From NCBI RefSeq assembly GCF_003334255.1, contig NZ_QOWU01000113.1: a DNA stretch of 3,818 nt. The stretch is one strand, 5' to 3'. The notes under the pieces were generated by a model. That model made no database searches. It worked only from the letters and a program-made list of their open reading frames with translations, and had not been told where the DNA came from. The position numbers and the translations under genes were made by a program. Source of the stretch: Escherichia coli. Lineage in GTDB: Bacteria; Pseudomonadota; Gammaproteobacteria; Enterobacterales; Enterobacteriaceae. Shown in pieces: positions 1-2,315 of this stretch (position 1 is the first letter of the stretch; every line of letters starts with the position of its first letter).

Positions 1-2315
1 ACACCAATCCGGCTGGTTGCCTCCTTCGTGAAGACAAACTCCCCGCGGTGGACAATCCCCGCTGGCTCATATTTGCCACCGGTTCCCGTAAATCCCCCGG
101 TCGCGAAATGGAAGTTCGCCGCCGCAGCCTGAATGGCCGTCCCCGTGGAGGCAGACGCACCACCACCGAAAGCACCGCCAATGGCGCTGCCGATACGCCC
201 GACAATCCCCACCATCGCCTGCTTCAGAAAAATCTCTGTCAGCATGGAGAGCACGGAACGGGTGAAACCACGCCAGTTCTGTTCGCTGCCGGTCAGCATC
301 GCTGCCAGATTCTGTGCAATACCGTCAAAGGTCTGCGTGGCCGCGCTTTTAACCTGCGAAAAACTGTCCGTCGCACTTTCCGCCCACTCGCCCCAGCCGG
401 ACTTCAGACCCGCCATCCAGCTTCCACGAAGCTGCTCCTCCGCAGACCAGGTGTTCTTCAGTGCAGATGTGGCCTTCGCCAGCGCATCCGGATTATCACC
501 GTACACGTCACGAAGGCGCTGCTCTTCCGACTCCCGCTGCGCCTGACGGTCGGTGAGGCCGCGGGCTTTTGCGCTGATTGCCGCCTGCTTCGCGCTCTGC
601 TGCTGTTCAAACCGCGCCGCCTGCTGTGCCAGCTCATTCAGCCGCTTCTGGTGTTCAACCTTGTCGCCCAGCTCAGCCAGCTGGCGTTTGTACTCCAGCG
701 TCTCTTTCTCATGAGCCAGCAGGGATTTTTCCTGCTCAGATAACTGCCGTTTCGTGGCGGCCTCTTTCAGGACCACATACTGATTTTCCGCTTTCCATAA
801 ATCCCGGCGCTGCTGGCTGATTTTTTCATTCGCACCGGCATGCTTTTCCAGCGTCAGGAGCTCGGTTTCAAGCGCCAGCATGGCTGCATGCGCCCGGTCT
901 TCCTGGCGCTCACCGGCAGACACCTTCACACCGGACGGCTTTTTCTGCGTCGACTCATAATCCTTTTTTGCCGACGCCATCAGCGTGTTGTAATCCGCCT
1001 GCAGGATTTTCCCGTCTTTCAGGGCCTTATTCAGCTCTTCCTGCCGGGCGGTATATTTCTCCAGTGGCGTCAGCAGGCGCTCATACGCCTTCTGCGCCTC
1101 TCCGGTATACTTCAGCTGTGACGACTCACGCTCAGCCCTGTCCCTTGCCGCCAGTTCACCGGCTTTTTCCATATCCGACTGCAGCGTTGCCGCTGCCAGA
1201 CCCAGACGGGCATTTTCCCGGTCATCCCATGCGCCCTGAAGGTTGGCCCGGAAAGAGGAGGTTTTACCGCGGCGCTGGCTCCGGCTCTGGTACCACTGCC
1301 ATTTTTTATCCGCCTCATCAAATGCCTTCTGCGCACTGGCGAGCATATCCGCTGAGGATTCCGGACGACCGATATCCAGAATGGCATCCCACATCGATTT
1401 GAACGCCTTCCCTGTTTTATCCGCCCAGGTTTCCAGCGTCCCCATGTTCTCTTTCAGGCGGCGGGTCTGCTCATCAAAGCCTTTCGTGGCAGCATCGTTC
1501 GCCGCCTGTAAGGCACCGGCCTCGTCTCCGGAACGCTGCAGCTGTGCAACATACGCAATCTGCTCTGCCGTCACGTTACGGAACTGGCGCGCCATCGCCA
1601 TCAGTCCCGACGTCGGGTCGGTGGTCAGTTTTCCGAAAGCCTCTGCAACCTTGTCCACTTCAACACCGGAGGCAGACGCAAAACGCGCGACACTCTGGTT
1701 AATGGCATCAAACTGTTCACCACCACGCACACCGGCATTCACCAGGGCTGCCAGTGACTCTCCCGCCTGGTTAAACGTCAGCCCTGCCGCCTGCCCGGCT
1801 CTGGAGAGCGTCAGCATACGATCGGCAGTCAGTCCGGCCTGATTGCCGGAAAGGACCAGCGTTTTATTAAATTCTGAAAGCGTGGAATCCCCCTGGTACC
1901 AGGCGTACGCCAGCGCACCTGTCGCCACCGCCAGCGAGGTGACCCCGACCATCGGCAGGGTGATCGCACCGGCAAGCCCCCTGAACATGGGGATCATCCC
2001 GCCGAAGGAGTCCTTCACCTGACCGCCCTGTTGCAGCAGGATGAGCCAGGGATTCTGACCACCGGCAAGCTGCGTGGCGATATCCGTAAACTGTGCGGGC
2101 AGGGTACGCATGGCTGCTTTATACTGCCCGACGGAAATCCCGGCTTTTTGTGCGGCCAGCGCCTGACGGTTCAGACTCTGCTCAACGGCACCGGCGGTTT
2201 TTCTGGCGTCGGTATCCAGTCCTGAAAAATGACGCCTTACCCGGCTCATCTGCTCATCGAAACGGGCCGCATCCAGACTCAGGTCAATAACAAGATCACC
2301 AACCGGCTGGGACAT
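1..2315 (-). CDS. H: Tail tape measure protein (lambda gpH-like), 3'-partial; 771 codons in window, C-terminus beyond window start
   Basis: Hand translation of the minus strand from ATG at 2315..2313 runs with no stop to position 3 (frame consistent at both ends). N-terminus MSQPVGDLVIDLSLDAARFDEQMSRVRRHFSG... and window-end segment ...GGKYEPAGIVHRGEFVFTKEATSRIGV closely match lambda gpH as recalled from memory. Central Glu/Lys/Gln/Arg/Ala-rich region typical of tape-measure coiled coils. GGAGG Shine-Dalgarno 8 nt upstream of the ATG. Gene is not in the supplied ORF track. Confidence 0.93.
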   Translation of the reverse strand, partial: MSQPVGDLVIDLSLDAARFDEQMSRVRRHFSGLDTDARKTAGAVEQSLNRQALAAQKAGISVGQYKAAMRTLPAQFTDIATQLAGGQNPWLILLQQGGQVKDSFGGMIPMFRGLAGAITLPMVGVTSLAVATGALAYAWYQGDSTLSEFNKTLVLSGNQAGLTADRMLTLSRAGQAAGLTFNQAGESLAALVNAGVRGGEQFDAINQSVARFASASGVEVDKVAEAFGKLTTDPTSGLMAMARQFRNVTAEQIAYVAQLQRSGDEAGALQAANDAATKGFDEQTRRLKENMGTLETWADKTGKAFKSMWDAILDIGRPESSADMLASAQKAFDEADKKWQWYQSRSQRRGKTSSFRANLQGAWDDRENARLGLAAATLQSDMEKAGELAARDRAERESSQLKYTGEAQKAYERLLTPLEKYTARQEELNKALKDGKILQADYNTLMASAKKDYESTQKKPSGVKVSAGERQEDRAHAAMLALETELLTLEKHAGANEKISQQRRDLWKAENQYVVLKEAATKRQLSEQEKSLLAHEKETLEYKRQLAELGDKVEHQKRLNELAQQAARFEQQQSAKQAAISAKARGLTDRQAQRESEEQRLRDVYGDNPDALAKATSALKNTWSAEEQLRGSWMAGLKSGWGEWAESATDSFSQVKSAATQTFDGIAQNLAAMLTGSEQNWRGFTRSVLSMLTEIFLKQAMVGIVGRIGSAIGGAFGGGASASTGTAIQAAAANFHFATGGFTGTGGKYEPAGIVHRGEFVFTKEATSRIG

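What the first reader, a model, noticed from the sequence alone, without database searches (positions are those of the whole stretch)
64..215. Gly/Ala-rich hydrophobic segment near the tape-measure C-terminus
Residues ..QAMVGIVGRIGSAIGGAFGGGASASTGTAIQAAAANFHFATGGFTGTGGKYEPAG.. form a low-complexity, small-residue, largely uncharged stretch that contrasts with the highly charged coiled-coil region before it. In lambda the equivalent region has been proposed to take part in membrane insertion and channel formation during DNA injection, and it is close to where H is proteolytically processed. The substitutions seen here (for example GRIG, GGAFGGG, ASTGT) are conservative, suggesting constraint on composition rather than exact sequence.
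Basis: partly seen in the sequence, partly recalled or inferred. Interest (0 to 1): 0.25.

Follow-up and report, generated by a model that had tools for sequence, protein, structure and literature searches.

The report
Glycine-rich hinge of lambda-type tape measure
This is the known glycine-rich stretch near the end of a lambda-type phage tail tape-measure protein, where the protein is cut during tail assembly; it is real but ordinary, and the case for it being a membrane-spanning segment is weak.

Summary
Window 64-215 (minus strand) encodes residues 701-750 of a lambda-type tape-measure protein gpH, which is 79% identical to lambda H overall and 91% in this stretch. It holds 14 Gly and 3 charged residues in 50, which is unusual for this protein.

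An alignment with 91 distant homologues (30-46% identity) shows the stretch is three different things:
- **Residues 701-712** are the end of the last, moderately hydrophobic helix of the Tape_meas_lam_C domain. Its Gly spacing is not conserved.
- **Residues 713-736** are a nearly uncharged Gly/Ser/Ala linker. Its length varies from 9 to 39 residues and its sequence is free.
- **Residues 737-771** begin a near-invariant motif, GG[YF]TGxGGKYEPxGxVHxGEFVFTKEATxRIG, which opens a C-terminal module of constant length.

Published work places the gpH to gpH* cleavage in this glycine-rich region. The published fragment masses put the cut at about lambda residue 710-725, inside the linker.

Membrane propensity is borderline. 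The Kyte-Doolittle maximum is 1.48, Arg707 sits in the hydrophobic stretch, and the literature rates this segment a low-confidence transmembrane prediction, favouring residues 116-140 instead.

Best reading: a flexible processing hinge between the ejected gpH* and the tip-bound gpHC, preceded by a hydrophobic helix that might contact membrane as in T5 pb2. The feature is already known and of low interest.

The parts
1..2315 (-). Tape-measure gene H, partial. The start ATG is at 2315. There are 771 codons in the window, and the last ~86 codons lie beyond the left edge.
   Evidence: Translation. Pfam TMP_2 and Tape_meas_lam_C. 79% identity to lambda gpH. Annotated homologues.
201..425 (-). Pfam Tape_meas_lam_C domain (residues 631-705). 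It ends just as the Gly-rich run begins.
   Evidence: E = 2.9e-21. AF2 predicts two long helices, 621-675 and 678-712, at low confidence.
180..266 (-). Terminal, moderately hydrophobic helix (residues 684-712, FTRSVLSMLTEIFLKQAMVGIVGRIGSAI). The first 12 residues of the finding belong to it.
   Evidence: The Kyte-Doolittle 19-residue maximum is 1.48. The helix is predicted by AF2. The hydrophobic pattern is conserved, but G703, G706 and G713 are not (21%, 8% and 5%). R707 sits inside it.
108..179 (-). Variable Gly/Ser/Ala-rich uncharged linker (residues 713-736). This is the probable site of gpH to gpH* cleavage.
   Evidence: In 93 aligned sequences the linker, measured from the residue after the conserved G709 to residue 736, is 9-39 residues long (median 24), with G 27%, S 15%, A 15% and 4.6% charged residues. 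High gap fractions and low column conservation. AF2 coil at 713-726 with pLDDT below 50. Natural in-frame deletions in E. coli prophages. Mass calculation and literature.
3..107 (-). Near-invariant motif F[AD]xGG[YF]TGxGGKYEPxG[IV]VHxGE[FY]VFTKEATxRIG (residues 737-771). It opens the C-terminal gpHC module.
   Evidence: G741, T743, G744, G746, G753, V755, H756, E759, V761 and G771 are 100% conserved in 91 homologues of 30-46% identity. The distance from the motif to the C-terminus is nearly constant, median 125 residues. Four other PHROG families, two of them annotated as tape-measure proteins, match only this part.
1896..2003 (-). N-terminal hydrophobic segment (residues 105-140). This is the stronger transmembrane candidate in the same protein and is included for comparison.
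   Evidence: Kyte-Doolittle maximum 1.72. The literature favours lambda 116-140 as the transmembrane segment.

Best explanation
The stretch is the junction between the two products of the lambda-type tape measure: gpH*, the ruler that is later ejected to form the periplasmic conduit, and gpHC, the C-terminal fragment whose last helix docks on gpI in the tail tip.

The junction has three parts:
- the end of the last hydrophobic helix of the Tape_meas_lam_C domain (residues 701-712);
- a flexible, slim, uncharged Gly/Ser/Ala linker of free length and sequence (713-736);
- the start of a strictly conserved motif that opens the C-terminal module (737-771).

**Shown here:** the three-part architecture, its conservation pattern and its composition.

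**Taken from the literature:** cleavage occurs in the glycine-rich region, gpH* forms the trans-envelope channel, and gpHC residues 818-849 bind gpI.

**Inferred:**
- The linker serves as an exposed, flexible hinge and processing site.
- This lets six elongated gpH* chains connect to, and then be uncoupled from, a three-fold tip-bound module, so that gpH* can slide and be ejected.
- After cleavage the hydrophobic helix lies at or near the new C-terminus of gpH*. That is the position occupied by the membrane-inserting hydrophobic stretch of T5 pb2*, so it may make a membrane or hub contact.
For: **Homology and family membership:**

**Conservation, from 91 distant full-length homologues:**
- The linker has variable length (9-39 residues) and free sequence but constrained composition: 56% G/S/A and 4.6% charged.
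- The flanking motif is near-invariant and sits at a constant distance from the C-terminus.
- Natural prophage variants delete up to ~26 linker residues in frame while keeping both flanks.

**Structure prediction:** AF2 gives a helix to residue 712, then coil at 713-726 with pLDDT below 50.

**Cleavage position:** a 78-79 kDa gpH* and a ~14 kDa fragment place the cut at lambda ~710-725, inside the linker. PMC12617516 states that cleavage is in the glycine-rich region, that the gpHC N-part (lambda 690-817) is unresolved, and that there are six gpH* but three resolved gpHC.

**T5 precedent:** the cleavage site lies between the hydrophobic stretch of pb2* and pb2C.

**Phage T1:** its tape measure (PDB 9l9p) also follows the same domain with a long uncharged G/S/A/T run.
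Against: - The exact cleavage site in gpH is unknown. Placing it in the linker rests on gel masses.
- AF2 confidence is low throughout (mean pLDDT 55), so 'disordered' is only weakly supported by prediction.
- A purely passive linker would not need to avoid charge, and typical flexible linkers carry polar or charged residues. The near absence of charge hints at an extra constraint, such as passage through a narrow lumen or contact with membrane.
- No experiment here or in the papers read tests linker function.
Confidence: 0.6

Rival explanations
1. The Gly/Ala-rich hydrophobic segment is itself a membrane-inserting element: a transmembrane helix, a glycine-zipper pore former, or a fusion-peptide-like segment exposed by cleavage. 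It would help form the DNA channel. This reading is compatible with the hinge model for the neighbouring linker.
For: - It is the second hydrophobic peak of the protein (KD 1.48 at residues 688-706).
- A GxxxGxxxG pattern is present (G709, G713, G717).
- The linker is almost free of charge in all homologues.
- In T5 a hydrophobic stretch just upstream of the tape-measure cleavage site is proposed to insert into the outer membrane.
- Some predictors give a low-confidence transmembrane helix for lambda 691-712, and gpH* becomes protease-resistant in proteoliposomes.
- From my own knowledge, not tested here: the composition resembles the Gly/Ala-rich fusion peptides of viruses, which sit next to cleavage sites.
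Against: - The KD maximum is below the usual 1.6 threshold in the window and in most homologues (median 1.41; 18 of 93 reach 1.6).
- Summed Hessa-type insertion energy is about +6 kcal/mol in the window and +4.4 in lambda. The scale values are from memory and position-independent.
- Arg707 lies in the middle of the stretch and is a common prophage polymorphism. Distant homologues usually have Q or K at the adjacent position.
- The Gly spacing is not conserved: G703 21%, G706 8%, G713 5%, G717 15%.
- The linker proper has a mean KD of only 0.21 and about 24% hydrophobic residues.
- The literature favours residues 116-140 as the transmembrane segment.
- ManYZ-related determinants map to residues 300-400.
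Confidence: 0.25
2. The Gly-rich run is the recognition substrate of a specific tail-assembly protease, for example gpK, which is annotated as a C40 family peptidase. In that case a sequence feature at its edges, rather than flexibility, is what matters.
For: - Cleavage occurs in this region and its catalyst is unknown.
- A C40 family peptidase gene (K) lies three genes downstream in lambda and in the closest prophage.
- The invariant GG-containing motif borders the linker.
Against: - No evidence links gpK to gpH cleavage in the papers read.
- The linker sequence is free, so any recognition element would have to lie in the flanks.
- The masses fit a cut inside the variable part rather than at the invariant motif.
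Confidence: 0.1
3. The stretch is neutral low-complexity filler with no function beyond joining two parts. Slippage-prone Gly codons would explain the length variation.
For: - Length and sequence vary freely.
- Many database variants carry indels or frameshifts here.
Against: - The composition is held in homologues of 30-46% identity (56% G/S/A, 4.6% charged).
- A linker of at least 9 residues is present in all 93 aligned sequences.
- No DNA repeats could drive slippage.
Confidence: 0.05

Closest known systems
Phage lambda gpH glycine-rich region, the gpH to gpH* + gpHC processing site
   Same: - It is the direct orthologue: 91% identical over residues 696-751 and in the same position (window numbering is lambda + 4).
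- The domain order and the V-G-T-H gene order are the same.
- The literature already describes the region as glycine-rich, as the place of cleavage, and as a weak transmembrane prediction.
   Different: - There are four substitutions: S703R, V712F, G720T and K730N. All occur as polymorphisms in E. coli prophages.
- The rest of the protein differs most from lambda at residues 301-400.
Phage T5 tape measure pb2 (pb2* hydrophobic stretch / cleavage site / pb2C)
   Same: - The tape measure is cleaved near its C-terminus.
- A hydrophobic stretch lies just upstream of the cut.
- The last ~35 residues of the C-terminal fragment form a trimeric coil on the tip plug (for lambda).
   Different: - T5 has 46 hydrophobic residues, enough for two transmembrane helices, and a muralytic metallopeptidase in pb2C.
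- The lambda type has one weak ~22-29-residue stretch and no known enzyme.
- No sequence homology to pb2 was detected in the PDB searches.
TIGR01541 / Pfam PF09718 Tape_meas_lam_C family, including the phage T1 gp38 tape measure (PDB 9l9p)
   Same: - The window protein scores well above the curated cut-off, and the TIGR01541 model spans the linker and the motif.
- T1 gp38 aligns through the domain and continues with an uncharged G/S/A/T-rich run.
   Different: - The Pfam model stops at residue 705, before the linker.
- The profile match to T1 ends at profile position 110, so T1 appears to lack the GGYTG...VHxGEFVF motif.
Transmembrane glycine zippers (GxxxGxxxG) and viral fusion peptides. These are analogies from general knowledge.
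   Same: The composition is Gly/Ala-rich and hydrophobic, one GxxxGxxxG pattern is present, and the stretch lies next to a proteolytic site.
   Different: The Gly positions are not conserved among homologues and hydrophobicity is below transmembrane thresholds. There is no experimental support.

Membership tests
Lambda-family tail tape measure protein (gpH; TIGR01541, PF06791 + PF09718) | N-terminal TMP_2 domain and C-terminal Tape_meas_lam_C domain | tested here: met
   TMP_2 at residues 54-256 (E = 9.7e-69) and Tape_meas_lam_C at 631-705 (E = 2.9e-21).
Lambda-family tail tape measure protein (gpH; TIGR01541, PF06791 + PF09718) | Score above the curated NCBIfam cut-off for tape_meas_lam_C | tested here: met
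   207.1 bits against a cut-off of 104.75 for residues 620-771.
Lambda-family tail tape measure protein (gpH; TIGR01541, PF06791 + PF09718) | Gene order V, G, G-T (with -1 slippery site), H, then M, L, K | tested here: met
   ORFs. The GGGAAAG heptamer is at 2754-2760 on the minus strand. Annotated relatives show M, L and K downstream.
Lambda-family tail tape measure protein (gpH; TIGR01541, PF06791 + PF09718) | Proteolytic processing to H* in the glycine-rich region | not testable with these tools
   Literature only. The mass calculation is consistent with it.
Transmembrane helix | About 19 or more residues with mean Kyte-Doolittle hydropathy of at least 1.6 and no charged residue in the core | tested here: not met
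   The maximum is 1.48. R707 and K698 lie within the stretch. The approximate insertion energy is about +6 kcal/mol (scale values from memory).
Transmembrane helix | Hydrophobic stretch conserved across homologues | tested here: inconclusive
   The median maximum is 1.41 and 18 of 93 sequences reach 1.6. Polar Q or K is common mid-stretch. No dedicated transmembrane predictor was available.
Glycine zipper (GxxxGxxxG) membrane-packing motif | Motif present in the sequence | tested here: met
   G709-x3-G713-x3-G717.
Glycine zipper (GxxxGxxxG) membrane-packing motif | Gly positions conserved in homologues | tested here: not met
   G713 5%, G717 15%, G703 21%, G706 8%. Only G709 (81%) and G719 (71%) are common.
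Flexible interdomain linker / processing hinge | Variable length and sequence, constrained small-residue composition, conserved flanks | tested here: met
   Length 9-39 residues, G/S/A 56%, 4.6% charged. Conserved helix upstream and invariant motif downstream. Natural in-frame deletions.
Flexible interdomain linker / processing hinge | Predicted lack of stable structure | tested here: inconclusive
   AF2 gives coil with pLDDT below 50 at residues 713-726, but the whole model is low-confidence (mean 55). Lambda residues 690-817 are unresolved by cryo-EM.
T5 pb2-type tape measure C-terminal organisation | Hydrophobic stretch immediately N-terminal to the mapped cleavage site | tested here: inconclusive
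   The hydrophobic helix 684-712 precedes the linker, but the lambda cleavage site is not mapped.
T5 pb2-type tape measure C-terminal organisation | Muralytic metallopeptidase in the C-terminal fragment | not tested
   The literature states that lambda virions contain no such enzyme. The fragment lies mostly outside the window.

The most novel reading that the evidence does not exclude
The stretch may work as a cleavage-activated membrane probe, in the way a viral fusion peptide does. Cutting inside the uncharged Gly/Ser/Ala linker would leave a Gly-rich hydrophobic tail (…AMVGIVGxIGSAIGG…) at the new C-terminus of gpH*, the first part to leave the tail. That tail would insert into the outer or inner membrane and nucleate the hexameric channel. 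The adjacent invariant GGYTGxGGKYEPxGxVHxGEFVF motif, which has no assigned function and has not been resolved structurally, would be the element that positions or catalyses the cut.
Probability: 0.15. Interest if true: 0.45.

Novelty: already known. Interest (0 to 1): 0.15.

Why it matters
How siphophage tape-measure proteins leave the tail and build the DNA conduit across the cell envelope is still open. For lambda, the cleavage site, the protease and the membrane-spanning parts are all unknown.

This stretch is where that processing happens, so it is relevant to that question. The window adds nothing new, however: it is an orthologue of a described lambda feature.

The one useful refinement is the three-part dissection into helix end, free-sequence uncharged linker and invariant motif. 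It tells an experimenter where to look for the cleavage site and which residues to mutate.

Tried and rejected
- **DNA-level explanations.** No tandem repeats were found, and only two short two-copy direct matches. Rfam gave no match at gathering thresholds. The plus-strand ORFs 48-743 and 133-546 are antisense to a gene with overwhelming homology support and were not pursued.
- **Glycine zipper.** The pattern is present but not conserved, so it was rejected as a defining feature.
- **Structure prediction.** Two AF2 runs, on residues 620-771 and on the C-terminal module 730-857 of the closest prophage, gave mean pLDDT of about 55. Fold searches would therefore have been meaningless and were not run.
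- **First homologue search.** The word-indexed search returned almost only E. coli fragments. It was useful for polymorphisms but not for conservation, and the exhaustive representative search replaced it.
- **Programmed frameshift as the origin of H*.** This was considered because many database variants are frameshifted in this stretch. It was rejected because the literature shows post-assembly cleavage. The PhiR5_1 case is a single-base deletion in a G/C run, and the closest prophage gene is intact.
- **Solved structures.** PDB sequence and profile searches found no solved structure covering this stretch. Only lambda residues 818-849 and T1 residues 921-956 are modelled.
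Full report
**What the window is**

The window carries lambda-type tail genes on the minus strand:
- the 3' part of V (3189-3812 and beyond);
- G (2736-3185);
- the T frame (2296-2709), with the classical GGGAAAG -1 slippery heptamer at 2754-2760;
- the tape-measure gene H, which starts at ATG 2315 and runs off the left edge after 771 codons.

The DNA is 98.4% identical to Escherichia phage PhiR5_1 and 98.9% identical to prophages in E. coli chromosomes. Related sequence is present in 3738 of 5426 complete E. 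coli genomes. The protein has Pfam TMP_2 at residues 54-256 and Tape_meas_lam_C at 631-705, and TIGR01541 scores well above its cut-off. It is 79% identical to lambda gpH overall. The closest prophage encodes an intact 857-aa protein that differs at 7 residues, none of them in the finding.

**Checking the observation**

Window 64-215 (minus strand) translates exactly to the quoted peptide, residues 701-750. The compositional contrast is real:
- 14 Gly in 50 residues against 7.6% elsewhere, binomial P = 1.5e-5. Only 28 of 5000 shuffles give a window this Gly-rich.
- 3 charged residues against 25.5% elsewhere, P = 4e-4.
- The preceding coiled-coil region has 15-19 charged residues per 50.

Nothing at DNA level explains the stretch. 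There are no tandem repeats, only two short two-copy direct matches, and no Rfam match.

**What it is made of**

An exhaustive search of 1.84 billion representative proteins with residues 620-771 found 3558 relatives at E <= 0.001. I aligned 91 long (at least 600 residues) distant relatives of 30-46% identity. The finding splits into three parts.

1. **Residues 701-712** belong to the last helix of the Tape_meas_lam_C region. AF2 predicts helices at 621-675 and 678-712, at low confidence.
   - The hydrophobic pattern is conserved, but the glycines are not: G703 21%, G706 8%, G713 5%, G717 15%. Only G709 (81%) and G719 (71%) are common.
   - The GxxxGxxxG pattern in the window is therefore not a family feature.
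2. **Residues 713-736** are a linker with no conserved sequence.
   - Measured from the residue after the conserved G709 to residue 736, its length is 9-39 residues (median 24, 27 in the window).
   - Its composition is held: G 27%, S 15%, A 15%, and 4.6% charged.
   - AF2 gives coil at 713-726 with pLDDT below 50.
   - E. coli prophage variants delete up to ~26 of these residues in frame while keeping both flanks.
   - Phage T1 gp38 (PDB 9l9p) follows the same domain with an even longer uncharged G/S/A/T run.
3. **Residues 737-771** are the start of a near-invariant motif, F[AD]xGG[YF]TGxGGKYEPxG[IV]VHxGE[FY]VFTKEATxRIG.
   - Ten positions are 100% conserved.
   - The motif lies at an almost constant distance from the C-terminus, median 125 residues.
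   - Four other PHROG families, two of them annotated as tape-measure proteins, match only this part.
   - In an AF2 monomer model it is not a confidently folded domain.

**What is already known**

PMC12617516 (Sci Adv 2025) makes the following points:
- The exact site and the protease are unknown.
- gpH* (about residues 1-710) is present in six copies and forms at least a major part of the periplasmic channel.
- Three copies of gpHC are resolved, and only residues 818-849, bound to gpI.
- Lambda residues ~690-817 are unresolved.
- Transmembrane predictors favour residues 116-140 and give 'a much less confident prediction' for 691-712.

My mass calculation on lambda gpH places a 78-79 kDa N-fragment and a ~14 kDa C-fragment at a cut around residue 710-725, inside the variable linker.

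A 2025 preprint finds that lambda gpH is labelled by ManZ during injection. It ties ManYZ dependence to tape-measure residues 300-400 (A304V), not to the C-terminal stretch.

**Membrane propensity**

- The stretch is the second hydrophobic peak of the protein, with a KD 19-residue maximum of 1.48 at 688-706. The peak at residues 113-136 reaches 1.72.
- That is below the usual 1.6 threshold here and in most homologues: median 1.41, with 18 of 93 reaching 1.6.
- A position-independent sum of Hessa-type values gives about +6 kcal/mol for the window and +4.4 for lambda. The scale values are from my memory, so this is approximate.
- The window has Arg at 707 where lambda has Ser. This is a frequent prophage polymorphism.
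- Distant homologues usually have Q or K next to that position.
- The linker proper has a mean KD of 0.21.
- No dedicated transmembrane predictor was available, so this remains a borderline negative rather than a refutation.

**Best explanation**

The stretch is the junction between gpH* and gpHC: the end of a hydrophobic helix, a flexible uncharged hinge that most likely holds the processing site, and the start of the conserved C-terminal module.

- **Shown here:** the architecture and conservation pattern.
- **From the literature:** cleavage in the glycine-rich region, the channel role of gpH*, and the docking of gpHC on gpI.
- **Inferred:** that the linker works as a hinge bridging the six-fold and three-fold parts and is cut so that gpH* can move and be ejected. 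Also inferred is that the preceding helix may then make a membrane or hub contact as in T5.

I put this at about 0.6. The membrane-insertion reading of the Gly-rich segment itself is at about 0.25, and it is not exclusive of the hinge model. A protease-recognition role is at about 0.1 and neutral filler at about 0.05.

- The link to the processing site is correct and documented.
- The membrane claim is only a weak published prediction.
- 'Conservative substitutions' is inaccurate, since S to R and K to N change charge.
- 'Composition, not sequence' applies only to the middle third.

The feature is an orthologue of a described lambda feature, so it is already known and of low interest.

Noticed in passing
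window 3-107 (minus strand; H residues 737-771), continuing beyond the left edge: The motif GG[YF]TGxGGKYEPxG[IV]VHxGE[FY]VFTKEATxRIG is near-invariant in tape measures that are only 30-46% identical overall. It is the most conserved part of the C-terminal region, yet it has no assigned function and is unresolved in the lambda cryo-EM structures. Four other PHROG families, two of them annotated as tape-measure proteins, match only this part. T1 gp38 seems to lack it.
   Followed up: partly
window 1116-1415 (minus strand; H residues 301-400): This block is far more diverged from lambda gpH (32-46% identity) than the rest of the protein (68-100%). It coincides with the aa 300-400 region, including A304V, that a 2025 preprint links to ManYZ dependence of genome injection and to SNIPE susceptibility in the PhiR phage panel.
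   Followed up: no
window 1896-2003 (minus strand; H residues 105-140): This is a stronger hydrophobic segment (KD maximum 1.72, GMIPMFRGLAGAITLPMVGVTSLAVATGALAYAWY) inside the TMP_2 domain. It is the literature's favoured transmembrane candidate for gpH*.
   Followed up: partly
L001 about 3040-3060 (PhiR5_1, PV340545.1), equivalent to window ~70-80: The GenBank record of the closest phage has a 1-base deletion in a G/C run inside the GGFTGTGG codons. H is therefore annotated as two CDSs of 777 and 79 aa. This is either a sequencing error or a real lesion in a plaque-forming phage.
   Followed up: partly
window 64-215 equivalents in E. coli database proteins: Many cluster representatives of E. 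coli prophage tape measures carry frameshifts or in-frame deletions of 9 to ~26 residues exactly in this Gly-rich stretch. It appears to be a hot spot for indels in resident, often defective, prophages.
   Followed up: partly
window 2754-2760 (minus strand): The GGGAAAG slippery heptamer lies near the end of G, with the T frame open downstream (ORF 2296-2709). This is the classical lambda G/GT -1 programmed frameshift, conserved here.
   Followed up: partly
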